In this document: positions 2,289 to 21,859 of the stretch, piece by piece
Numbering within the stretch: position 1 is the stretch's first letter
Layout: every line of letters starts with the position of its first letter
From: Candidatus Stammera capleta
Lineage (GTDB): Bacteria; Pseudomonadota; Gammaproteobacteria; Enterobacterales; Enterobacteriaceae
Assembly (NCBI GenBank): GCA_015134355.1
Contig: CP043978.1
Coordinates: 198,902 to 262,901 of the forward strand
Direction of reading: 5' to 3'
Length of the DNA: 64,000 nucleotides
Notes under the pieces: generated by a model
The model's input: only the letters and a program-made list of their open reading frames with translations
Told to the model about the DNA's origin: nothing
Databases searched by the model: none
Made by a program: the position numbers and the translations under genes

Positions 2289-2303
2289 TTTATATTATAA
2301 ATT

Positions 2304-2351
2304 TATACCTTCTTAGTATTATTTAATTTAAATAATAAATAAGAAGGTATA
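2304..2351. terminator. Hairpin between convergent ppa and ybhL (candidate bidirectional terminator)
   Basis: A 12-bp stem (2304-2315 TATACCTTCTTA pairs with 2340-2351 TAAGAAGGTATA) sits centred between the ppa stop (2288) and the ybhL stop (2362). It holds the only G/C-containing pairs in the spacer. Confidence 0.5.
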
Positions 2352-2361
2352 TTTATATATA

Positions 2362-3108
2362 TTAGTTTTTTTCTTCTTTTTCTTTATCTTTATCTTTATA
2401 TGATTTAATTCCTAGTATTTTTAGTATTAATATATATATATTAATAAAATCTAAATATAATAATAAAGCTCCTAAAATAGAATATTTTTTTAATTGATCA
2501 TTATGTTTTATGATTATATTATTTCCTATTTCTTTTAATTTTTGTGTATCTCATGCAGTTAATATAGTAAATATAATTATACTTATATATGATGTAACTC
2601 AAATAATATATGAATTTTTTAATCATATATTTATTATACTTGATAATAATATACCTATTAAACACATTAATGATAAATTACCTATTTCAGTAAGATCTTT
2701 TTTAGTTATATACCCTCAAATGCTCATTATAGCAAACATTATACTTGTTATAAAAAATGATGTACATATTGATGAATATGTATATATTAAGAATATACTT
2801 GATATAGATAATCCATTTAATATAGAATATATTATAAATAATATAATTGCTGTTTTAGCAGTTAATTTATTAATTGAATTAGATAATATTAAAACTATCA
2901 TTAGTTGTAATATTAATAATATAAAAATAAAAAATTTATTTAAAAATATTAATTCTAATATAAATGGTATTTTAATAGAATATCATGCTGTAATTGCAGT
3001 TAATAAAAGTCCAAATGACATTCATGCATATACATTACTAATATAATTAGTTAATGTATTTTTATGTATTAATTCAAAATAATTATTATTATAAGAATTT
3101 TTTTTCAT
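2362..3108 (-). CDS. ybhL: BAX inhibitor-1/YccA-family inner membrane protein (YbhL-like)
   Basis: Read with TGA=W: MKKNSYNNNYFELIHKNTLTNYISNVYAWMSFGLLLTAITAWYS...TAWDTQKLKEIG...KKYSILGALLLYLDFINIYILILKILG. This is colinear with E. coli YbhL (...VYGWMTVGLLLTAFVAWY...TAYDTQKLK...RKYSILGALTLYLDFINLFLMLLRIFG). AGGAAA precedes the ATG at 3108. Confidence 0.85.
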
Positions 3109-3131
3109 AAGTATTTCCTAATTTTAATATA

Positions 3132-3857
3132 TTATTTATTATTATAATTAAATCAATTTAATATATTATTTCAAGTTTTTTTAGATACATTTTTATTATA
3201 TGATTTACTTTTTTTATCTAAAAAACTATGTTCACATTTATCATATATTATTAATTTGATATTTTTATTTTTTATATTTTTTTTAAAATTATATATATCT
3301 TTTTTAGGTATTATTTTATCATTTTTTGCATATATACCTAATACAGGTATTTTAATATTATTTGCAAAATCTAATGGATGTATAGGATGTTTTTTATCTT
3401 TAATATTATTAATTCTTCCATATAGAACAATTGATTTTTTAATTTTTTCTTTATTTAAATAAGAATATAATCATGTAATTCTACCTCCTCAACTTAGACC
3501 TATCATATATATATTATTAGTTTTAAATTTTTTTTTAATTCATTTTATTAAATTATTTAAGTCTTTTATTATTATTTTATCTGATAATTTATTAATTTTA
3601 TTTCTTAATATATTTATATCTTCATTAAATTTTATATTTTTTATTCTAAAAAATAGTTGTGGAGATACACAAATATAATTATTTTTACTTAATTTTTTAC
3701 ATATATATTTAATATGATTATTTAATCCAAATATTTCTGAAATTACTAATATAACTTTATTTTTTTTATTATTATTGTTTTTATTAATATAATATATAAT
3801 TGGTAATTTTTTTTTATCTTTAGTTATTATATTATTTTTTATTATTTTTATATTCAT
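3132..3857 (-). CDS. ysgA: Dienelactone hydrolase-family protein (YsgA-like)
   Basis: Piece 3540..3857 continues through TGA codons. [34 protein letters not shown], EHSF and the C-terminal TWNNILNWF match E. coli YsgA ([47 protein letters not shown]). The nucleophile position is Ser rather than Cys. Confidence 0.8.
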
Positions 3858-3950
3858 AATTTTAAATTTTATTTAATATATTTTATATTATATTATATTA
3901 TTTATATTTAAAATTATATTTTAATTTAAAGTTTAAATTTTTATATTATT

Positions 3951-6230
3951 TTAATTTAAATTTTTAATATCATTATCTATTAAAGCATTAAATTTTTTTT
4001 TTAATATTTTTTTACATTTTTTAACTATTTTACTTATTTCCTTTTCTTTTAAAGTTTTTTTATTATTTTGTATATTTAAATTTATTGTTATATTTTTTTT
4101 TTTATTTTTTTTTAATATTTTATTTATAAAAAAATTTATAACTTTAATATTTTTAATATAATTTATATTTTTACATTCATTTATTATTAAATGTATTGGT
4201 ATTTTTTTATTTACTACTAATGTTATATCTCTTTCATTATATGGATATTTTGATAATTTTTTTATATTATTTTTTAAAGGATATAATATTTTATTTAAAT
4301 ATATTTCTGAAACAAATATAGGATATTTTATTGAAAATTTTTTTTGTAATTTATTATTTATCATTCCAATTAATCCTATTTTTTTTTTTTTAATAAATAT
4401 ATTAGCATTTTGTAATTTATCTAAAAATTTATGTTTACTTTTTTTTAAATAAAAATCTTTAATTTTATTTTGTTTTTTTAATAATAATTCTATATCTCCT
4501 TTTATATCATAAAAATTAAATATATTATATTTTTTGTTTTTTCAATATTTTTCGTATTTTATTCCATATGTAATTAAAGATATTTTTTTTTTTAATATAA
4601 ATTTATTATTTTTAATTTTATAACAAGTACCTATTTCAAATATTTTTATACTATTATTTTTTCTTTTGATATTAAAAATTATATTATTAATTAATCCTGG
4701 TATTAATGATGATCTTAGTATTGACATTTTTTTGGATATTGGATTTAATATTTTAATATTTTTTATATTATTATTAAATCTTTTTTCTTTTGATTTATTA
4801 CTAAAATGAAAATTTATTATTTCTGTATATCCTATACTTGATAAAAATTGTTTAATATTATTTATATTTTGTGTATATTCGTTTTTTCTTATAATTTTTA
4901 ATGTTGTTTTAATTCTTTTTTTTTTGATATTTTTAAATCCATAAGATTTTATTATTTCTTCTATAAAATCTTCTTTAATATTTAAATCATATCTACTATT
5001 ATGAGGTTTAATTATTATAAATTTATTTTTTAATTTAATTTTACAATTAATATTTTTTAATATATTTAATATTATTTTTTTTTTTATATGTATACCTATT
5101 TTTTTTTTAATTTCTAAATATTTTATTTTAATATTTTTTTTTTTTTTTATTCTATTATTAATATTTTTAAATAAAATTATATTTCCATATCAAATATTTT
5201 TAATTATAAATAATATTTTTTTAACACAATAATATTGTGTTTCATTATTAAAATTATTATTATAATAAAGTATCATATTATAATCATTTTTATTATAATT
5301 ATAATATATAAATTTTTTTTTAAATAAAAAAGATATTATTATAATTTTTTTTGTATTTTTATTAGGTAAGTATTTTATATTATATTTATTAAAATTTTTT
5401 AATATTATTTCTTTTTTATTTTTTAAAATTATATTTTTATATATATTATTATAATTATTTTTTATTTCTAAAAATATTTTATGTTTTTTGATTTTATTAA
5501 AATCAAAACACATAAGTATATGGCCAAATTCTATTGATATATAATTTATTATATCTAATATATTATTATTAATAATAAATCCCATATTTTCTATTTTATT
5601 TTTAATAAATTTTGGAATATTATTTTTTTTAATATTTATATTATCTATAATTATATATTTATAATTTTTTATATATTTAAAACATTTATTTAAAAATTTA
5701 ATTTTTAAATCATATTTAAATTTATTTTTAAATTTTATTTTTATTTTTTTTTTTTTAATATTAGTATTATTTATAATACATATTTCTTTTGATATATTAT
5801 ATATATTATTACAATCAATTCTGTTATATGGAATATTTATTTCTAAAAATTTTTCGTGTTTTTTAGTTAATAAATTTTGTTTGATTATTATATAATGTTT
5901 ATTATTTATTTTTAGTTTATTTATATAAAAAATATTATTTTTATATATTTTATTTTTATATATATTTTTATTTATTCATATATATTTATAATTAATATTT
6001 TTTTTATATTTTATTTTTATATTTATTTTAAAATTATTTAATAAAATACATATTAAATATATATTATAATTAATTTTTTTATATTTTATAATTTTTGTTT
6101 TTATAAAATTTTGTGGAATATATTTTATAGTAGTTTCAAAACCGTTATTATTTAATATATTTTTTATATTTTTAATATTTAATTTTTTATTTTTTATATA
6201 TTTTTTTATTCATTTTAAGTAAAATTTCAT
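3951..6230 (-). CDS. pheT: Phenylalanine--tRNA ligase beta subunit
   Basis: The N-terminus MKFYLKWIKKYI matches E. coli MKFSELWLREWV. Same-frame pieces 5190..5585, 4542..4727 and 3951..4364 are joined through TGA. The gene lies directly downstream of pheS. The total span is a multiple of 3 (759 aa); the interior was not checked codon by codon. Confidence 0.85.
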
Positions 6231-7785: not shown

Positions 7786-8283
7786 TTATTTATTAGGTTT
7801 AAATATCATTATCATCTGATTATTTTCTATTTTATTATTTAAGAAATCTAATTTAGATATTTTATTTAGATTTTTTTTGATATTATTAAACATTTTTATA
7901 GCTATATTTTTATGTATTATTTCTCTTCCTTTAAATCTTATTATAATTTTAATTTTATATTTTTTTTTAATTAAATTTTTTATTTTTCTAATTTTTATAT
8001 TATAATCATTTTTGTTAGTATTTGGTCTAAATTTAATTTCTTTTATAATAAAATTTTTATTTTTATTTTTTTTTATATTTTTATTTTTTCTATATATAAA
8101 TTTTCCATAATCTAATATTTTACATATAGGTGGATTAGTTTTAGAATTTATTTCTATTAAATCCATATTAGATTTTTTAGCTATATATAATGCTTCTTTA
8201 GTTTTTATTATTTTATTTTTTATTATATTATTACCTATTATTCTTATTATTTTAGATTTAATATTTTTATTTATATTAAACAT
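7786..8283 (-). CDS. infC: Translation initiation factor IF-3
   Basis: ...EALYIAKKSNMDLIEINSKTNPPICKILDYGKFIY... matches E. coli IF3 ([35 protein letters not shown]). The ATG at 8283 gives a slightly short N-terminus. In-frame ATT codons at 8308-8319 could be the true start, as with the E. coli AUU start. Confidence 0.9.
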   Translation of the reverse strand: MFNINKNIKSKIIRIIGNNIIKNKIIKTKEALYIAKKSNMDLIEINSKTNPPICKILDYGKFIYRKNKNIKKNKNKNFIIKEIKFRPNTNKNDYNIKIRKIKNLIKKKYKIKIIIRFKGREIIHKNIAIKMFNNIKKNLNKISKLDFLNNKIENNQMIMIFKPNK

Positions 8284-8311: not shown

Positions 8312-9532
8312 TTAATAATTTTTTCCTTTAAAAATTTTTTTAGTTTTTTTCTTAATTTTTTTTATGATATAATTTAAATATTTTTGTTTATTTTTATTTT
8401 TAATATTATTTCTAATATTAATTTTATTTAAATTTATTTCTTGATCACCACATATTATTATATAAGGTATCTTTTGTAAAGTATATTTACGTATTTTAAA
8501 ATTTATTTTATTATTTTTAATATCTATTATAGATCTTATATAATTATATTGATTTAGAATTTTAAATATTTTTTTACAATATAATATATGTTTCTTAGAA
8601 ATATTTAATATAACTATTTGTATTGGTGTTAATCATATAGGTAATCATCCTTTATTTTTTTCTATTAATATACCTATAAATCTTTCTAAAGATCCTAATA
8701 TAGCTCTATGTATTATAATAGGATATTTTTTAATATTATTTCTATTTATAAAATAAACTTTTAAATTTTTAGATAAATTAAAATCTATTTGTATAGTACC
8801 ACATTGTCATTTTTTATTTTGTTTGTCTTTTATTAAAAATTCTATTTTTGGTCCATAAAATGCTCCATCATTTTTATTTATTTTAAATTTTATATTTTTT
8901 TTAATTAAAATATTTATTAATTGATTTTCTATATTATTTCATTTTTTTTTTTTACCTAGATATTTTTTAGGTCTAGTTGATATATATATATATATTTTTT
9001 TTAATTTAAATATTTTATATATTTTTTTAATAATAAATATACATTCTAATATTTCTTTTTTTATTTGTTTTTTTGTACAAAAAATATGTGCATCATCTTG
9101 AGTAAAAGATTTAGTTCTCATTAAACCATATAATGAACCTGAAGGTTCATTTCTATGACATATACCAAATTCAGATATTTTAATTGGTAAATCTTTATAT
9201 GATTTTACATTATTTTTAAATATTTCTATATGTCCTAAACAGTTCATAGGTTTTAAACATAATTTAATATTTTTTTTAATATAAAAAATATATTTTTTAT
9301 AATTTTTTCAATGTCCACTATTTTTTCATATTTTTTTAGGTATTAAATATGCTGTTTGTACTTCTTTATATTTAAATTTTTTTATTTTTTCTCTAATTAA
9401 ATTTTTTATTATATTTATTATTATTAATCCATTATTTGTTCAATAAATAATTCCAGGATTATTTTTTTGAATATGAAATATTTTTATATTTTTATTAATT
9501 ATTCTATGATCATTTATTTTAAATTTATTCAT
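8312..9532 (-). CDS. thrS: Threonine--tRNA ligase, catalytic and anticodon-binding domains only (N-terminal TGS/editing half absent)
   Basis: Starts [35 protein letters not shown], which aligns near residue 240 of E. coli ThrRS ([29 protein letters not shown]). It continues through [12 protein letters not shown] and [27 protein letters not shown] to ...[10 protein letters not shown]...KGKNY. An in-frame TAA at 9566-9568 limits any upstream extension. Length 406 aa versus 642. Confidence 0.85.
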
Positions 9533-9626
9533 TTTATATAATTTATTATATTGTTTATTTTTATTTTAAATAATAAATATATTTATATATTATTATATAT
9601 AATAAAATAATTATTTTAAATATATT

Positions 9627-10157
9627 ATGTCTTTTAATAATCATTTAATTTTTTCTTTATTTTGTTGTATAATATTTATAAAATATTTTTGTTTGAAATA
9701 TAATATTAATTTATTAATTTTAATTTTATTTAGTTTATTTTCTAGTTTATTACCTGATATAGATCATATTAATTCATTTATTGGTAATAAATTTAAAAAT
9801 ATTTCTTATTTTATATATAAAATTTTTGGACATAGAACTATAACACATAGTTTAATTATTTTATATTTATTATATATATTAATATTTAATATTAAATTTT
9901 TATTTTATAATATTAGTATTAGCATTAAATATGGTGTATTTATAGGATATTTAAGTCATATATTAGCTGATATGTTAACTATTAAAGGTATAAATTTTTT
10001 TTGACCTTTTAAAATATATTTTAAATTTCCTTATTTTAATATAAAAAATAGAAAATTAGAATATTATATTTGTTTATTTTTATTATTTTTATCTATTTTT
10101 TTAGAAAATATAATTTGTATATTAAAAATCTTATTTAAAAATATATATTTAATTTAA
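9627..10157 (+). CDS. ydjM: YdjM-family membrane-bound metal-dependent hydrolase
   Basis: LLPDIDHINSFIG, FGHRTITHSL and GYLSHILADMLTIKGINFFW(TGA)P match E. coli YdjM (LLPDIDHPKSFLG, FGHRGFTHSL, GYLSHILADMLTPAGVPLLWP). Confidence 0.8.
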
Positions 10158-10159
10158 TA

Positions 10160-13100
10160 ATGTTTATATTATATCAATCTAATGATTTTAAAATATTAAA
10201 GAATATGTTTTTATATGTTTTTAAAAAAAAACAATTTAATAATTATAATGATAATATAATTTTAATATCTAATAATAATGTTTCTTTAAATTTAAAAATA
10301 TTTTTTAGTAAATATTTAGATATATTTGCTAATTATAAATTTTTATTAACTGCTAAATTTATATGAAATTTATGTAAATTATTTTTAAAAGATATATCAG
10401 ATATTAATTATTTTAGTAAAATTAATTTATTTTTTGTAATATTAAATATTTTACCTAAATTAATTAAAAATAATAATTTTTTAAAATTAAAAAAATATTT
10501 AAAAAATGATTTAAATTATATTAAATTATTTGATTTATGTTATAAAATATCAGATTTATATGATAAATATTTAGTTTATAGACCTTATTTATTGATTAAC
10601 TGAGAAAATAATATATTAGATAATAATATTAATGATGATAATCAAATTTGACAATGTATTTTATGAAAAAAAATTATAAATTTTTATTTTAAAAAGTTTA
10701 ATTGTAAATTATATAGATCAAAAGTTTTATTTAATTTCTTAAATATTTTAGAAAAAGAAAAAAATTTATTTAAAAAATTATATAAACATATTTATATTTT
10801 TAATGTTTATAATTTACCACCTTTATATTTAGATATTATTTATTATATGTCAAAACATATTGATATTCATTATTTTTTAATAAATCCATGTAAAGAATAT
10901 TGATTTGATATTAATAATTTTATTAATATAAATAATAATTTAATAAATAATAATTATAATATATTTAATTCAAATTCATGTATATTATATTATGCAAAAA
11001 TATTTTCTGAATATTTGTATATAATATTAAATTATAAAAATATATGTGAAATAAATTATTTTAATAAATATTTTAATAAAAATATTTTAGGATATTTTAA
11101 AAAAAATATATTATATTTTTATAATAATAAGTTTAATTTTTTAAATAAATTAAAATATATAGATAATTCTTTAATTGTTAAATCTTGTTATGGTTATTTA
11201 GATGAAATTTATAAATTAAAAAAATTTTTATTAAAATTATTATTTAAATATAATTATAAATATAATGAAATAGCTATAGTTATTACAGATATTAAAAGAT
11301 ATTTATTTTATATTAATTTAATATTTTCTGATTATAAATATAAAAAAATTATACCATATTTAATTTTAGATAAATTTCATGATAATAATATATTTAAATT
11401 TTTAATAAAAATATTAAATATTAAAGATATTAATTTAAATTCATATGATTTTTTAGAATTATTTAAAAATAAAATTATTTTAGAAAAATTTAATATTGAT
11501 AAAAATGAATTAGATGTTATATTAAATTTAATTAATAATATAAATTTTTTTAATAGTATTAAAAATTTAAATATTAATAAAAATTTATTTAATAAAATCA
11601 ATTATATAAATTTTATTGAAAATATTAAAAGTTTGTTATTAAGTTATTTTATAAATAAAAAATATTTTATATGAAATAATATTTATAGTTATAAATTATT
11701 AGATAGTAACTTTATATATAATATAATAGCTAAATTTTCAGATTTTATTTTTAAAATATTATATTGAAAAAATATTTTTAATAAAAAATATTTTTTTAAT
11801 GAATGAATTATTTTATATTTTAATATAATAAATGATTTTTTTTCAAAAAGTTTGATAAATGATTATTATTTTTTAAATAAAGAGTATTTAAATATTTTAT
11901 TAGATAATTATAAAATTATAAATTTTAATAAAAAAGTTAATATTGATTTTTTTATTAAAATAATATGTATTTTATTTAAAAAAAAAAATAAAAATAAGCA
12001 ATATTCAATTAATCATATTAATATTAGTTCAATTTTTTATTTGAGATCAATACCTTTTAAAGTAATTTGTATATTAGGTTTAAATTTAGATATTTATCCT
12101 AAAAATATTTTAAATTATAATTTTGATTTAATGTATTTATATCCTAAATTAGGAGATAGAAATAAAATAGAATATGAAAAATATTTATTTTTAGAAAATT
12201 TTATATTTGCTCAAGATAAGATTTATATAAGTTATATTAATATATCATTAGAAAATAATAATAAATATTTTCCTTCTATTTTGTTAGATAATTTATTAAG
12301 TTATATTAATATTAATATATATAATTTTAAAAACAAAAATATTAAAAGATTTTTTTATAGTTATAAAAAAAAATTAAATGTTAAAAATAATATTATATCT
12401 TTAAAATCTTTTTATATTTTATTTAAAAAAAGTAATATTATTTTATTAAAGGATATTCATAATTTTTGATTTAATCCAATAAAATTTTTTTTTAATAATT
12501 CATTAAAAATTTTTTTTTATGAAAATATTAGTAATAATTTAACTTATAATATAAAAGATTTTTATAATTTTAAGAAAAAAATTATTAATAGTTTATTAAT
12601 AGGTAAAAAATTTAATAAAAATTTTTATTTATATTTACAAATATTTAATTTAATACCTTTTGGTAATTTTGGGAAAATTTTTTGAAAAAATGAAAATTTT
12701 AATATAATTAAATTATTTAATTATATTAATAATATATCTTTTGATTATAAAGATTATAAGTTTTCAATTTTAATTAAAAATATTTATTTAAATGGTATTT
12801 TAAATATTAATAATAATTTAAATCATTATAAATTTTTACCTAAAAATTTAAATTTAATAGATGGTTTATTATTTTGAATAGATCATTTAGTATATTGTTC
12901 ATTAGGTTTTAATAAAAAAAGTATATTATATGGTTATAATAATTTATTTATATTTGAAAATTTAGATATATATTTATCTAAATATTTATTATATTTTTAT
13001 ATAAAAGGTTTTTTATTTGGTATTAATAATCCATTATTTTTTTTACCTAAATTAAGTAATTATATATTGTTAAATATATATAATTTTAAAATAAAAAAAT

Positions 13101-13306
13101 TATATATTAATAAAAGAATTATTAATTCAATATTTTTAAAAATAAAATATATAATAAATAATAAGAATTATAATTATTTTTTAAACGATGTTTATATTAA
13201 TTATTTAATAAAATATAATTATATAATAGATGAAAATTTAATTATTAATAATGCTAAAAAATGATTATTACCTATGTTAAAATATATAAAGATTAAAAAT
13301 TTTTAA
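10160..13306 (+). CDS. recC: Exodeoxyribonuclease V gamma subunit
   Basis: MFILYQSNDFKIL...DLYDKYLVYRPYLLINWENN...LPPLYLDIIYYMSKHIDIHYFLINPCKEYW matches E. coli RecC (MLRVYHSNRLDVL...DLFDQYLVYRPDWLAQWE...LPPVYLQALQALGKHIEIHLLFTNPCRYYW). Pieces 10160, 11015, 11852 and 13067 share one frame and are joined only by TGA. Length 1048 aa. Confidence 0.8.
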
Positions 13307-13311
13307 ATGTA

Positions 13312-16300
13312 ATGAATATTTTTGATTATTTAAATAGTTTTATAAATAAAATTAATTTAATTGAATCTTCTGCAGGTACTGGTAAAACTAATATAATTTC
13401 TTTATTATATTTAAGATTTTTATTAAATATTAATATTGAAAGTAAATATTTTTCAAATTTATTAATTAATAATATTTTAATAGTAACTTTTACTGATTTA
13501 GCTTCTTTAGAAATTAAAAATAGGATTTTAAATAATATAAGAAATTTAAAAGAATCATGTATAAATAATTATTGTATTAATGAAAATATAGATATTATTT
13601 TTAATTATATTAAAAATATTCCTAATATAGTTAATTTATTAAATCAAATAGAAAATAATATTGATTATACTTCTATATTTACAATACATGGATTTTGTAA
13701 AAAAATTATTTTTAATAATTTTATAGAATTTAATATAAGTTATAATTGTAAAATATTATCTGATGAATATAATTTAATTTATGAGTTAACTATTTGTTAT
13801 TGATATAATAATTTATCTTTATTAAAAGAAAATATATTATTAATAATATTAAAATATTGATCTAATTATAATTTTTTATTTAATGATATAATTAAAATTT
13901 ATAATTTTAATAATATTAAATGTAATTTTAAAAAAAAAATTTTTAATTCTATTGAAAATTGTTATTTTAGTATTTTAAATTATATAATTTTTTTTAAAAA
14001 AGAGTGATTATTAAATAATAAATATTTATATAATTATTTATTAAAATTTAAAGATAAAATGTTTAGTTTATTAGAATTAAAAAATTTATTTTTACAGATA
14101 AATTTTTGAGCTAAAAGTAAAACTTTAGATTTTTATATTCCTAAAATTTTATATAAATTAAGATATAAATTTTTTTTATATAATTATAAATATACTTATT
14201 TTAATAAAGATTATACATTATTATATTTAGATTTTTTATTATATAAGTTAAATGATTTATATAATTATATATTATTAGATTGTTTAAAATTTATTAAAAT
14301 AAATATTAAATTAAGAAAAAAAGAAAAATTATTAATAAGTTTTGATGATTTAATAAATAAATTTAATAAATTTTTAAATAATAATAATAATTTATTTTTG
14401 ATTAATTATATTAGAAAAAATTATCCTATAATTTTAATAGATGAATTTCAAGATACTGATATTAATCAATATTGTATTTTTAAGAAAATTTATATTAAAA
14501 ATAGTTCTAAATTTAAAACAAAAATGATATTAATTGGTGATCCTAAACAATTAATATATTCTTTTAGAGGAGCTAATATTTTTAGTTATATGTATGCTAA
14601 AAAGAATATTAAGTATATATATACTTGTAATATAAATTGACGTTCTTCTTATTATTTAAATAAAAGTTTTAATTATATATTCACTAGAGTAAAAAATTTT
14701 TTTTTATATAAATATATAAATTATGTAAAGTTAAAATCTGATTTAAATAATAAAAATTTATATATATTAAAAAATAATTGTATTGATAATTCAATAAAAT
14801 TTCATATATTTAAAGATTTGAAATATAAAAATTTAAAATTTAATTTAGCTAAATATTGTGCTATTAAATTAATAAAATTATTAAGTAATAAAAACATATA
14901 TATTTTAGATAAATATAAAAATAAGCGTAATTTATATCCTTCTGATTTTTGTATATTAGTTTATAGTAATACAGATATTAAAATAATTTTAGATGTTTTT
15001 AAGAATTTTAATTTACCTATTTTTTATAATTATACTAAAGATAGTATATTTAATACGAAGGAATCTGAAGATATTATATATATATTAAAATGTATATTAT
15101 TTCCTATATCTAAGATTAATATTAGAAATATATTATTAACTTCTTTGTTTGGTTATAGTATTTTAAATATTAATTTTTATATTGATAATGATAACTATTT
15201 TAATAAATTAATAGAGGAATTTTATTTATATTATGATATATGGAATAAATTTGGTATTTATTCTATGATTAAATATATTATTAAAAAAAAAAAAAAAATA
15301 GTTAATAATATTTTAAATAAAAATGAGTATATAAATAATATTTTACATTTATCCGAAATTTTACAAAATATATATTTAAAATTAAATGATAAATTTTTAT
15401 TATTAAAATGATTAGAAAATAAAGTAATTAATAAGAAAAATATATTTAAAAAAAGATATTATATTAGATCAAATTTTTATAATAAAGAATCAATAAATAT
15501 TTCTACTATACATAAGTCTAAAGGTTTACAATATAATATTGTTTGATTACCATTCTTAATAAAATTAAAAATTAATAATAGATTTTATTATTTTTATAAT
15601 CGTAAAAATTTAAGTTTTAATTTAGACTTATATAAAACATATTATGGAAAATTTTTAATGATGGAAGAAATAATTTCTGAAGAAATTAGACTGTTTTATG
15701 TGGCAATCACAAGATCAATATATCAATGTAATATTTTTATTTATGATTATGATATTAATAATAAAATTTTTTATAGTAAATATATTAATAATATTTTAGG
15801 AATAAAAGAAAAAAATAGTTTTATAAATTTAAATAGTTATATTAAATCTAATATTAATTATAAATATATTTTAATTAAATTTTTAAATTTATATAAATAT
15901 ATTAAGTATAATAAAAATATATTTTTTAATATAAAAAAATCAAAAAAGAAAGTTTTAAAATTTAAAGAATTTGTCATTAAAAGAAATAAATTTATTTTAA
16001 ATTATTCTAATATTAAAAAAAAAATTAGTTATTTAAATAATTATATTAAAAATAATATAAATAATAATAATTTTTTATTAAGAGGTAAAAATATAGGTAA
16101 TTTTTTTCATAATATTATTGAAAATATTAATTTTAAAAATTTTAATTTTAATATAAAATTTTTACTATTTAAATTAAATGAATTTAATATAGATAAAAAA
16201 TATTTTTTTTTAATTAAAAATATTTTATTTAATTTATTAAATGTTAAATTAAATAATTTAAATATAAATTTATGTAGTTTAAATAAAATTAATATTTATA

Positions 16301-16803
16301 AAGAATTTAATTTTTTTTTATATGTTTATAAAAAATTTAGTTTTATTAATTATTTAAATATTATTAGTAAATATGATCTTATTTCTAGAAAATGTATTAA
16401 TAATAATTTAAATTTTAATTTTTATGGTTTTTTAAATGGTATAATAGATTTAATATTTTATTATAATAATAAATATTATATTATAGATTTTAAAACTAAT
16501 TGAATAGATTCTCATTATTCATCATATAATTACAGAAATATGTTTGAATTAATGTGTAAAAATAGATATGATATACAGTATCAAATATATTCTTTAGCTT
16601 TACATAAGTTTTTAAAAATGAAATATAACAATTATTGTTATAAAAATAATTTTGGTGGTATATATTATATATTTTTAAGAGGTATATTTTTAGATACTAA
16701 TAATAAAAGTTTAACTGGTATATATTTTATTAAACCTAAATTTAAATTAATTTATAAATTAAGTAGGTTTTTTATAAAAAAAAAAATATTTTATGAAAAA
16801 TAA
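13312..16803 (+). CDS. recB: Exodeoxyribonuclease V beta subunit (helicase-nuclease)
   Basis: Walker A SAGTGKT lies at 13369-13389. ILIDEFQDTD, ILIGDPKQLIYSFRGA and the nuclease motif IIDFKTNW...RYDIQYQIYSLALHKFL (D at 16486-16488, K at 16492-16494) match E. coli RecB (YLLDYKSNW...RYDLQYQLYTLALHRYL). Five same-frame pieces are joined through TGA. Length 1163 aa. Confidence 0.85.
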
Positions 16804-18607
16804 GGTAGATGATTTTTTATTAAGTGCTTATAAAAAATCTAAATTAGATTTAATAGATATAAATTTTTCTAAATTATTTTATTTAGAATATGATATTAAT
16901 AGTTATGTATATGTGTTATTTGCATCTATATTAAGTTTATCTAATAGATTAGGTAATATTTTTTTATTTTTAGAAAATTTTTTTGATAGAAATATTTTTA
17001 TTTCTAAATATATTTTAAAATTTTTATATTATTTTTTTAATAATCATATTTCTATTAAAAATTGTATAAATTTAATGTTAAATTCTTATATTGTAAGTGT
17101 ATGATTTAATAACAGATATACTCCTTTTATTTTATATAATGATTGTATTTATTTATATAAGAATTGATATTATGAAAATTATATTATAAATTATTTAAAT
17201 AAAAATTTTTATAATAATAAAAAAAAAAATATAAATTTAAATAATTTAAATTTATATATTAAAAATATTAATATTAATTCTAAATTTAAAAAAATTATAT
17301 TAAGTTCAATATTTAATAAGTTTACTATAATTTCTGGTTCTCCAGGAACTGGTAAAAGTACATTAATTATTAAATTAATTATTTTATTATATAAAATATA
17401 TAATTTTAAGGATAAAAAAGATATTATATTATTATCACCTACTGGTAAATTATCTTCATGATTAACTAATTGTTTATTAAATATTTATAATGAATTAAAT
17501 ATTAGTAATAAATTTTTACCAAATAAGTGTTTTACTATACATAAATTTTTAGGTTTTAATTATTTATATAATTATTTAAAATTTAGTAGAAAAAACAAAA
17601 TATTATCATATTATATAATAATAGATGAATGTTCTATGGTTAGTATAAATATTTTTTATAATATATTATCTTCTTTAAGTAATTATACTAAATTAATATT
17701 AGTAGGAGATTATTATCAGTTAAATCCTATTGAATCTATATCAATATTTAATGAAATTTGTAATATATTATACAATAAATTTTATATTAAAAATTATTTT
17801 AATTATTTTTTATATTATAAAAATATATTTATTCTAAATAAAAATTATCGTTATATTAATAATAATAATAATATTGGTAAATTTTTGAATTTAGTTAAAA
17901 ATAAAAATTATAGTATTTTATATAAATATTTTTTAAATAATTTTTATTCTGATATTATTTTTTATGATTCTAGTAAATTTAATTATGATTTTTTTTTAAA
18001 TTTATGTATTAAATTTTATAAAGTTTATATAAATATTATTTTAAATAATCCAAATATTAAAGAATTATTAAATGTTTTTAATAAGAATCAAATAATTTGT
18101 GTATTAAAAGATACTAATAAGGGTATTATTTTTATAAATAATTTAATAAATAATTATATATATAACAATATTAATAATAAATATTTATATAATTTTAATA
18201 ATGATATTCATTTTTTTGGTGAACCTATTTTAGTTATTAAAAATAATAATAATTTAAAATTATATAATGGTGATTTAGGTTTTTTTATATTTAATAAAAA
18301 TAATAAATTAAGATTATATTTTAATAAAAAATATAATTATTTACATCCATTTATATTATATGGTAATTGAGTTAATGCTTGAGCTATTACAGTTCATAAA
18401 TCTCAGGGTTCTGAATATGATAATATTTTATTTATTTTACCTGATAAATTTTTAAATATATTAAATAATAATATAATATATACAGCTTTAAGTAGAGCTA
18501 AGAAAAAAATTATTATTTATGGTAATATTGATATATTAATTAATAGTTTAAAATTATTTAATAAAAAAAATAATAATTTTAATAAGAGAATAAATTTAAT
18601 ATATTAA
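16793..18607 (+). CDS. recD: Exodeoxyribonuclease V alpha subunit
   Basis: Walker A GSPGTGKS lies at 17336-17359. IIIDECSMV and the C-terminal W(TGA)AITVHKSQGSEYDNILFILP...YTALSRAKKKIIIYG are typical SF1 RecD motifs. The gene overlaps the recB 3' end by 11 nt. Length 604 aa. Confidence 0.85.

Positions 18608-19330: not shown

Positions 19331-21859
<2,529 letters not shown>

What the first reader, a model, noticed from the sequence alone, without database searches (positions are those of the whole stretch)
8312..9532. ThrRS lacks the entire N-terminal TGS and editing half
The thrS reading frame begins at 9532 with [15 protein letters not shown]... This aligns near residue 240 of E. coli ThrRS ([14 protein letters not shown]...), the start of the catalytic core.

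An in-frame TAA at 9566-9568, and the divergently transcribed ydjM starting at 9627, leave no room for the roughly 240-aa TGS and N2 (Ser-tRNA-Thr hydrolysing) domains. The product is 406 aa, against 642 in E. coli.

The enzyme can presumably still charge tRNA-Thr, but it has no cis-editing of Ser.
Basis: partly seen in the sequence, partly recalled or inferred. Interest (0 to 1): 0.6.

Follow-up and report, generated by a model that had tools for sequence, protein, structure and literature searches.

The report
ThrRS without its editing domain
The only threonyl-tRNA synthetase gene of this 268-kb beetle gut symbiont (very probably Stammera) encodes just the catalytic and anticodon-binding parts. 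The proofreading half has been deleted and nothing in the genome replaces it, which is a clear but expected case of quality-control loss in a shrinking genome.

Summary
Read with TGA=Trp, window 8312-9532 (-) is a 406-aa ThrRS that aligns to E. coli ThrRS residues 242-632. It has Pfam hits only to the class II core and the anticodon-binding domain. An in-frame TAA at 9566-9568 and ydjM at 9627 leave no room for the N-terminal half.

The genome (268.5 kb, 2 contigs) has no TGS domain. Its only tRNA_SAD hit lies inside AlaRS, and its only tRNA_edit hit lies inside ProRS. It has no ThrRS-ed or DTD homologue and no N-terminal remnant.

The truncation is not an assembly artefact: 22 of 25 genomes of the genus share it. 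Three relatives keep an N-terminal half of about 200 aa in which the HxxxH and CRGPH editing motifs are already destroyed. A ThrRS tree shows at least two independent deletions, so editing died first and the dead domain was then removed repeatedly.

All 13 active-site residues checked match the free-living enzyme. The enzyme should therefore charge tRNA-Thr and also release some Ser-tRNA-Thr.

This is a new member of a known kind. Loss of synthetase editing in host-restricted bacteria is known, as are natural editing-less ThrRS in mitochondria and crenarchaea. Interest is modest.

The parts
8312..9532 (-). thrS, 406 codons plus stop under code 4 (7 TGA=Trp). It encodes only the catalytic core and the anticodon-binding domain, equivalent to E. 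coli ThrRS 236-642.
8654..9271 (-). Class II catalytic domain (Pfam tRNA-synt_2b, residues 88-293). Zn ligands C334/H385/H511 and R363, E365, Q381, D383, Y462, K465, T482, Q484, S517, R520 (E. coli numbering) are all conserved.
8348..8620 (-). Anticodon-binding domain (Pfam HGTP_anticodon, residues 305-395).
9533..9626 (.). 94-bp A+T spacer between the divergent thrS and ydjM. It contains the in-frame TAA (9566-9568) that closes the thrS frame upstream. It is too short for the ~240-aa N1/N2 half.
9627..10157 (+). ydjM (PF04307 YdjM, E=1.7e-31), the divergent neighbour that bounds the deletion.
7786..8283 (-). Downstream ORF in the position of infC, followed by ORFs in the positions of rpmI, rplT and pheS. 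This is the conserved thrS-infC-rpmI-rplT-pheS order, showing the locus is the orthologous thrS. Gene names are assigned by position and visible sequence, not tested with a profile.
   Evidence: ORF list and translations

Best explanation
This is the single housekeeping ThrRS of a ~268-kb, code-4 gammaproteobacterial gut symbiont. The organism is very probably Candidatus Stammera: its small contig carries GH28 polygalacturonase and a PL4 rhamnogalacturonan lyase. The enzyme has lost the whole N-terminal module (the TGS/N1 domain, the N2 Ser-tRNA-Thr hydrolase domain and the linker) through reductive evolution.

What remains is the zinc-containing class II catalytic domain plus the anticodon-binding domain. 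This is the natural equivalent of the engineered E. coli deltaN-ThrRS (residues 242-642).

Shown here:
- The domain is absent.
- No replacement is encoded anywhere in the genome.
- The aminoacylation site is identical to that of free-living relatives.
- The truncation is genus-wide.
- In the three relatives that still carry an N-half, the HxxxH and CRGPH editing motifs are already destroyed.
- The deletion occurred at least twice independently.

Inferred:
- The enzyme aminoacylates tRNA-Thr(UGU) normally. The zinc site still rejects Val, but Ser is activated at the usual low rate.
- Without post-transfer editing, Ser-tRNA-Thr is released, giving a low level of Ser at Thr codons that the symbiont tolerates.
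- The order of events was relaxed selection on fidelity, then decay of the editing site, then excision of a useless terminal module under deletion bias.
- ThrRS lost the domain outright because it is an N-terminal appendage that can be removed just by adopting a new start. LeuRS in the same genome keeps a dead CP1 domain because CP1 is inserted inside the catalytic fold.
- The E. coli-type translational autoregulation of thrS, which needs the N-terminal domain, must also be gone.
For: - Domain content and alignment to E. coli 242-632.
- Closed frame upstream and the ydjM boundary.
- No TGS. tRNA_SAD only in AlaRS. No tRNA-Thr_ED. No DTD. tRNA_edit only in ProRS. No remnant by tblastn or HMM.
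- Only one thrS in the genome and one tRNA-Thr gene.
- 22 of 25 genus genomes have a 398-418 aa ThrRS. G006 (605 aa), G022 (592 aa) and G019 keep an N-half.
- In the retained N-halves, H73/H77 read K..Y, N..K or N..F, and C182RGPH186 reads KIKN, DIKN or KIKK. Pfam no longer detects TGS or tRNA_SAD in them.
- The clade (G006, G022)+(G011, G020) has 100/99 support, and G011/G020 are truncated, so there were at least two deletions.
- All 13 catalytic residues checked are invariant across the genus, in every sequence that covers them.
- LeuRS CP1 is present but TTRPDT reads IKNIKL and D342/D345 read Y/K.
- Literature: the bacterial N2 domain edits Ser-tRNA-Thr, and deleting the N-terminus abolishes autoregulation (PMC7373986). 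A deltaN ThrRS has null editing, and HxxxH and DxCRGPH are required for editing (PMC4787780). Small-genome, host-restricted bacteria commonly have degenerate editing sites (PMC7373986 and PMC10057733, citing Melnikov 2018).
Against: - No biochemical or proteomic data exist for this enzyme, so mischarging in vivo is inferred.
- Pre-transfer editing in the synthetic site cannot be judged from sequence and could lower the error rate.
- The number of independent deletions rests on a single-gene tree whose backbone is unresolved (8 open forks).
- The identification as Stammera is by inference (code 4, genome size, pectinase contig).
Confidence: 0.85

Rival explanations
1. Fidelity is kept by the core itself. 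As in yeast mitochondrial ThrRS (MST1), which also lacks the editing domain, the synthetic site would hydrolyse Ser-AMP (pre-transfer editing) or discriminate better, so little Ser-tRNA-Thr is released.
For: MST1 (3ugq) is a clear homologue of the query core (E=1.5e-76). That MST1 uses pre-transfer editing is from my own knowledge (Ling et al. 2012, J Biol Chem), not checked here. PMC4787780 lists pre-transfer editing and better active-site discrimination as known compensations in other synthetases.
Against: All 13 substrate- and zinc-binding residues are identical to the free-living enzyme. That enzyme needs post-transfer editing, so there is no sign of retuning. For Anabaena T2, active-site discrimination was ruled out as an effective fidelity mechanism and the other mechanisms did not prevent Ser-tRNA-Thr formation in vitro.
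Confidence: 0.12
2. Editing is supplied in trans, either by an unrecognised symbiont protein or by a host-derived deacylase.
For: Crenarchaea split ThrRS into ThrRS-cat and a free-standing ThrRS-ed, and ProXp-ST factors clear Ser/Thr-mischarged tRNAs (PMC7373986).
Against: Whole-genome profile searches for every known editing fold found only the cis domains of AlaRS and ProRS. The genome has only about 350 ORFs of 60 aa or more. Stammera is reported to live extracellularly in the foregut symbiotic organs, according to the abstract of bioRxiv 10.1101/2023.12.12.571295. That makes import of a host protein unlikely.
Confidence: 0.04
3. The deletion is adaptive rather than neutral. Either a dead editing domain is harmful (for example by unproductive capture of the tRNA 3' end, or through its cost in a tiny cell), or mild Thr-to-Ser mistranslation is useful, so the module was removed repeatedly by selection.
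For: There were at least two independent deletions, with different N-terminal boundaries (4 to 28 residues before the DHR motif), within one genus.
Against: Three lineages keep the dead N-half as an open frame of about 200 aa. The G006-G022 pair shows 68% identity in TGS and 53% in N2, against 78% in the catalytic domain. Persistence of the dead N-half argues against strong selection for its removal. Deletion bias alone predicts recurrent loss.
Confidence: 0.1
4. Artefact: a misassembly, or wrong use of the genetic code, hides the 5' half of the gene.
For: None. Under table 11 the gene looks fragmented, which could mislead an annotator.
Against: Code 4 gives one clean frame aligned end to end with ThrRS. 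22 independent assemblies of the genus show the same short gene. UGA=Trp is documented for Stammera (PMC8629427).
Confidence: 0.01

Closest known systems
Engineered E. coli deltaN-ThrRS (residues 242-642; PDB 1evk/1evl/1fyf/1kog and later 4hwo, 4p3o etc.)
   Same: Same boundaries to within about 6 residues. Query residues 7-397 align to chain residues 2-392 with E about 1e-124. It has the same two domains and the same zinc ligands and substrate-binding residues.
   Different: The E. coli form is a laboratory construct used alongside an intact chromosomal gene. Here the short form is the natural, only ThrRS of the organism. About 45% identity in the catalytic domain to a free-living relative.
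Yeast mitochondrial ThrRS MST1 (PDB 3ugq, 460 aa)
   Same: A natural ThrRS without an N2 editing domain, serving a highly reduced translation system. Homologous core (E=1.5e-76).
   Different: Eukaryotic and organellar, nuclear-encoded, with its own N-terminal extension. It is reported (from my own knowledge) to use pre-transfer editing and to charge an unusual tRNA. It is far more diverged from the query than E. coli ThrRS is.
Crenarchaeal ThrRS-cat plus free-standing ThrRS-ed (e.g. Aeropyrum pernix ThrRS-1, PDB 3a31)
   Same: A shortened thrS that lacks the N-terminal editing domain (PMC7373986). The core is homologous (E=1.1e-48).
   Different: In archaea editing is kept on a separate DTD-like protein. 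Here no such protein exists (PF08915 and PF02580 both absent).
Editing-deficient synthetases of Mycoplasma and other host-restricted bacteria (Li et al. 2011; Melnikov et al. 2018, as cited in PMC7373986, PMC10057733, PMC11415595, PMC4014445)
   Same: Same evolutionary setting: a small host-restricted genome, editing sites mutated or deleted, and no trans-editing factors. The same pair of enzymes is affected here (ThrRS and LeuRS).
   Different: Mycoplasma ThrRS is described as having a degenerate or mutated editing domain. Here the whole N1+N2 module is excised, and one genus shows both the degenerate and the deleted states.
Anabaena T2 ThrRS and its T2-deltaN mutant (PMC4787780)
   Same: A ThrRS with impaired editing mischarges tRNA-Thr with Ser, and the deltaN form has null editing.
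   Different: T2 is a stress-induced paralogue rescued by trans-editing from the T1 subunit. Stammera has a single gene and no partner.

Membership tests
Threonine--tRNA ligase (bacterial ThrRS, TIGR00418) | Whole-protein score above the curated equivalog cut-off | tested here: met
   454.5 bits against a cut-off of 383.65, matching model positions 169-564
Threonine--tRNA ligase (bacterial ThrRS, TIGR00418) | Class II catalytic core with zinc ligands (C334, H385, H511) and motif 2/3 arginines | tested here: met
   PF00587 E=2.8e-46. C/R/E/Q/D/H/Y/K/T/Q/H/S/R are all conserved.
Threonine--tRNA ligase (bacterial ThrRS, TIGR00418) | C-terminal HGTP anticodon-binding domain | tested here: met
   PF03129 E=9.5e-14, residues 305-395
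Threonine--tRNA ligase (bacterial ThrRS, TIGR00418) | N2 editing domain (tRNA_SAD fold, HxxxH and DxCRGPH motifs) | tested here: not met
   No Pfam hit. The protein begins at a position equivalent to E. coli residue ~236.
Threonine--tRNA ligase (bacterial ThrRS, TIGR00418) | N1 TGS domain | tested here: not met
   No PF02824 hit in the protein or anywhere in the genome
Threonine--tRNA ligase (bacterial ThrRS, TIGR00418) | Threonylation of tRNA-Thr | not testable with these tools
   Inferred from the sole gene copy, the presence of tRNA-Thr(UGU) and the intact active site
Naturally editing-deficient aaRS of host-restricted organisms | Editing site absent or with catalytic residues replaced | tested here: met
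   The domain is deleted. Relatives with a retained N-half lack HxxxH and CRGPH.
Naturally editing-deficient aaRS of host-restricted organisms | No compensating trans-editing factor encoded | tested here: met
Naturally editing-deficient aaRS of host-restricted organisms | Measured mischarging or mistranslation | not testable with these tools
   Needs enzyme assays or proteomics
Split ThrRS-cat / ThrRS-ed system (Crenarchaeota) | Free-standing DTD-like ThrRS-ed protein | tested here: not met
   PF08915 and PF02580 are absent from the genome

The most novel reading that the evidence does not exclude
Stammera would be a natural bacterial lineage whose only ThrRS has no editing of any kind and no compensation, living with constitutive Ser-for-Thr mistranslation. 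The genus would preserve the full trajectory: an intact-length but dead domain, then repeated convergent excision. In this reading the recurrent excision is selected, because a dead N2 domain interferes with tRNA release or has a cost, rather than being neutral. That would make the genus a ready-made comparative system for measuring what a proofreading domain costs and what its loss does to a proteome.
Probability: 0.15. Interest if true: 0.55.

Novelty: new member of a known kind. Interest (0 to 1): 0.33.

Why it matters
This is a clean natural case of a bacterium whose sole ThrRS is the deltaN form that structural biologists made artificially. All known back-up editing factors are demonstrably absent.

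The genus contains lineages with a dead but retained N-half next to lineages with independent deletions. It therefore offers a comparative series for three questions:
- In what order is translational quality control dismantled during genome reduction?
- Why are terminal editing modules excised while inserted ones (LeuRS CP1) persist as dead domains?
- How much Thr-to-Ser error can a minimal proteome tolerate?

It does not change the current picture, because loss of synthetase editing in host-restricted organisms is established. It is mainly useful for annotation: the gene is not a pseudogene or a fragment. It could also serve as a test system.

Tried and rejected
- Table 11 ORF calling fragments the gene. 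I rejected it in favour of table 4.
- I looked for a hidden N-terminal piece with four Pfam families, tblastn (with and without the low-complexity filter) and a custom HMM against all six-frame peptides of 25 aa or more. The only weak hit, E=0.89, is the homologous AlaRS editing domain. All others are lysine/isoleucine-rich noise.
I worked around this through align_proteins, whose alignments are laid there.
- Melnikov et al. 2018 (PMC6298100) and Li et al. 2011 (PMC3111296) are not held. Their content is cited only through reviews.
- A search of the Stammera comparative-genomics preprint found no mention of synthetases, so I could not establish whether this truncation has been reported for Stammera.
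- I did not run a structure prediction. The full-length 417-bit match to the solved deltaN-ThrRS makes it unnecessary.
- The order-wide scan cut off the per-match rows, so the N-terminal coverage of thrS in the other ~300-kb genus (g41) is inferred only from its stronger E-values.

Full report
**Observation.** The window has about 12% G+C. Under table 11 the thrS region breaks into short ORFs. Under table 4 a single frame runs from 9532 down to 8312 on the minus strand. It is 406 aa with seven TGA=Trp codons. The frame is closed 11 codons upstream by a TAA at 9566-9568, and no alternative start lies in between. The divergent gene starting at 9627 is ydjM (PF04307, E=1.7e-31). Downstream ORFs sit in the positions of infC, rpmI, rplT and pheS, so this is the orthologous thrS locus.

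**What the protein is.** Pfam finds only tRNA-synt_2b (residues 88-293) and HGTP_anticodon (305-395), with no TGS or tRNA_SAD hit even at E<=1. NCBIfam TIGR00418 (thrS equivalog) scores 454.5 bits, above its cut-off, but only over model positions 169-564 of 565. Against the PDB, residues 7-397 align to E. coli ThrRS residues 242-632 (1qf6). They also align end to end with the crystallised N-terminally truncated constructs (1evk, 1evl, 4hwo, 4p3o and others; E about 1e-124). The protein is therefore the natural counterpart of the laboratory deltaN-ThrRS. In an alignment with a full-length free-living relative, 13 residues are identical: the zinc ligands C334, H385 and H511, plus R363, E365, Q381, D383, Y462, K465, T482, Q484, S517 and R520. 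They are also invariant in the 24 genus sequences that cover all 13 positions (the G019 fragment covers only the first six).

**Is anything replacing the lost half?** The window lies in a 268,511-bp assembly of two contigs.
- A TGS profile finds nothing.
- tRNA_SAD hits one place, inside the 892-aa AlaRS, which keeps its own HxxxH and CxxxH motifs.
- The archaeal ThrRS-ed profile and the DTD profile find nothing.
- The YbaK/ProX (tRNA_edit) profile hits only the insertion domain of ProRS.
- tblastn used the N-terminal 241 aa of a free-living ThrRS and the N-halves kept by three relatives. An HMM of these four was also run against all six-frame peptides. Neither gave anything better than E=0.02. 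The best hit of the free-living N1/N2 query, at E=0.89, is the homologous AlaRS editing domain.
- There is one thrS and one tRNA-Thr(UGU) gene.

**Is it an assembly artefact?** No. A profile search of 24 other genomes of the same genus (200-314 kb) found thrS matching only model positions of about 150-170 onward in most of them. I fetched all 24 loci and called the ORFs. Twenty-two of the 25 genus genomes encode a ThrRS of 398-418 aa that begins 4-28 residues before the conserved DHR motif (E. coli D243).

**The instructive exceptions.** G006 (605 aa), G022 (592 aa) and G019 keep an N-terminal extension of 200-213 aa. G019's gene is interrupted by a single frameshift in a poly-A run, and its C-terminal half is intact in the next frame. 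The extension aligns with the TGS and N2 domains of the free-living enzyme, but it is heavily degenerated:
- Identity to the free-living protein is 14-18%, against 47-52% in the catalytic domain.
- Pfam no longer recognises TGS or tRNA_SAD in it.
- The editing motifs are gone. H73xxxH77 reads K..Y, N..K or N..F, and C182RGPH186 reads KIKN, DIKN or KIKK. These motifs are required for Ser-tRNA-Thr hydrolysis (PMC4787780).

Editing was therefore already dead in lineages that still carry the domain.

**How many deletions?** A maximum-likelihood tree of the core region places G006 and G022 in a clade with G011 and G020 at 100/99 support, and G011 and G020 are truncated. The deletion must have happened at least twice. 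The N-terminal leaders also differ between lineages. G003 has MIKLK... and G011/G020 have MELKMIKTK..., which echo the ancestral MIKIK start. Others have short unrelated leaders. The three genomes without in-frame TGA in thrS (G002, G003, G021) correspond to the published basal code-11 Stammera lineage (PMC13695967), and they are already truncated. If code 4 arose once, that implies a third independent loss. This last step combines my data with a published topology that I could not map onto the anonymous handles.

**Identity of the organism.** The evidence is code 4, 15% G+C, a chromosome of about 263 kb, and a 5.6-kb contig encoding a GH28 polygalacturonase and a PL4 rhamnogalacturonan lyase. 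UGA=Trp is documented for Candidatus Stammera capleta (PMC8629427), and small plasmids carrying the host-beneficial factors (including polygalacturonase) are described in bioRxiv 10.1101/2023.12.12.571295.

**Mechanism.** Established knowledge supplies the following:
- The ThrRS zinc site excludes Val but not Ser.
- The N2 domain hydrolyses Ser-tRNA-Thr after the 3' end moves about 39 angstroms to the editing site.
- Deletion of the N-terminal region abolishes E. coli thrS autoregulation (all three from PMC7373986).
- A deltaN ThrRS has null editing (PMC4787780).

With an unchanged synthetic site and no editing in cis or trans, this enzyme should charge tRNA-Thr and release a small fraction of Ser-tRNA-Thr. 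I consider this 85% likely. The main uncertainty is possible pre-transfer hydrolysis of Ser-AMP, as reported for the similarly domain-less yeast mitochondrial enzyme (my own knowledge, not checked here). The invariance of all active-site residues gives no sign of retuned specificity.

**Context in the same genome.**
- LeuRS keeps a CP1 domain (PF13603, 91 bits). However, its threonine-rich motif TTRPDT reads IKNIKL, and D342 and D345 read Y and K. This agrees with the earlier first-stage note e1-3093998.
- AlaRS keeps its editing motifs.
- ProRS and PheRS-beta keep weakly recognisable editing domains.

ThrRS is thus the only synthetase here whose editing module has been excised outright. I attribute this to its position as a terminal appendage.

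**Comparison and novelty.** Loss of synthetase editing in host-restricted, small-genome bacteria is established. The evidence comes from Mycoplasma ThrRS, LeuRS and PheRS and from the broad survey of Melnikov et al. 2018, as cited in PMC7373986, PMC10057733, PMC11415595 and PMC4014445. Natural ThrRS without an editing domain are known in mitochondria and in crenarchaea, the latter with a separate ThrRS-ed. The Stammera comparative-genomics preprint does not mention synthetases, so this instance and the within-genus series may be undescribed. It is nevertheless a new member of a known kind.

In an order-wide sample, tiny genomes show three states. Genus g41 (~300 kb) has a strong, probably full-length thrS hit at E about 1e-170. 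Seven ~200-kb genomes of genus g59, and G037, have no detectable thrS. This genus has the truncated form.

**Verdict.** It is an ordinary, though unusually clean and well-replicated, outcome of reductive evolution. Interest is modest (0.33). The comparative series within the genus is the most useful by-product.

Noticed in passing
window 19331-21859 (-), LeuRS: The CP1 editing domain is present (PF13603, 91 bits), but the E. coli editing motif TTRPDT reads IKNIKL and D342/D345 read Y/K. LeuRS post-transfer editing is therefore probably dead too. AlaRS (C1:7663-10341) keeps HSCLH and CSGTH.
   Followed up: partly
L015, L016, L034 (G002, G003, G021 thrS): The three largest genus genomes (~312 kb) have no in-frame TGA in thrS, whereas all the others have 5-7. 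This fits the recently published basal code-11 lineage of Stammera (PMC13695967).
   Followed up: partly
G000:C1:133987-134062: The only tRNA-Trp has anticodon CCA, not UCA, although TGA is read as Trp throughout. The gTranslate paper (PMC13695967) also notes this for Stammera.
   Followed up: no
L032:3480-3500 (G019 thrS): A single frameshift in a poly-A run splits thrS. The C-terminal half is intact in the next frame. It is either a homopolymer sequencing error or a slippage-rescued gene.
   Followed up: partly
G099, G121, G141, G160, G177, G193, G208 (genus g59, ~200 kb) and G037 (g14, ~300 kb): These tiny genomes of the same order give no thrS match at E<=1e-40. G037's best hit is at ProRS level. 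They may lack ThrRS altogether or have an extremely diverged one.
   Followed up: no
G038:C68:21171-22340: A 5.3-Mb free-living member of the order carries, besides a full-length thrS, a second 398-aa N-terminally truncated ThrRS paralogue (470 bits, model positions 171-559). It may be an antibiotic self-resistance or stress copy. G065 and G305 also have two hits.
   Followed up: no
G000:C2 (5,564 bp): 2303-3958 (-) and 4041-5306 (-): The small contig encodes a PL4-like rhamnogalacturonan lyase and a GH28 polygalacturonase. These are the host-beneficial pectinases typical of Stammera plasmids.
   Followed up: partly
window 10160-18607 (+): Three large consecutive ORFs (1048, 1163 and 604 aa) sit directly after ydjM. 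By order, size and N-terminal sequence they look like recC-recB-recD. A complete RecBCD would be a notable retention in a 268-kb genome. This was not tested with profiles.
   Followed up: no
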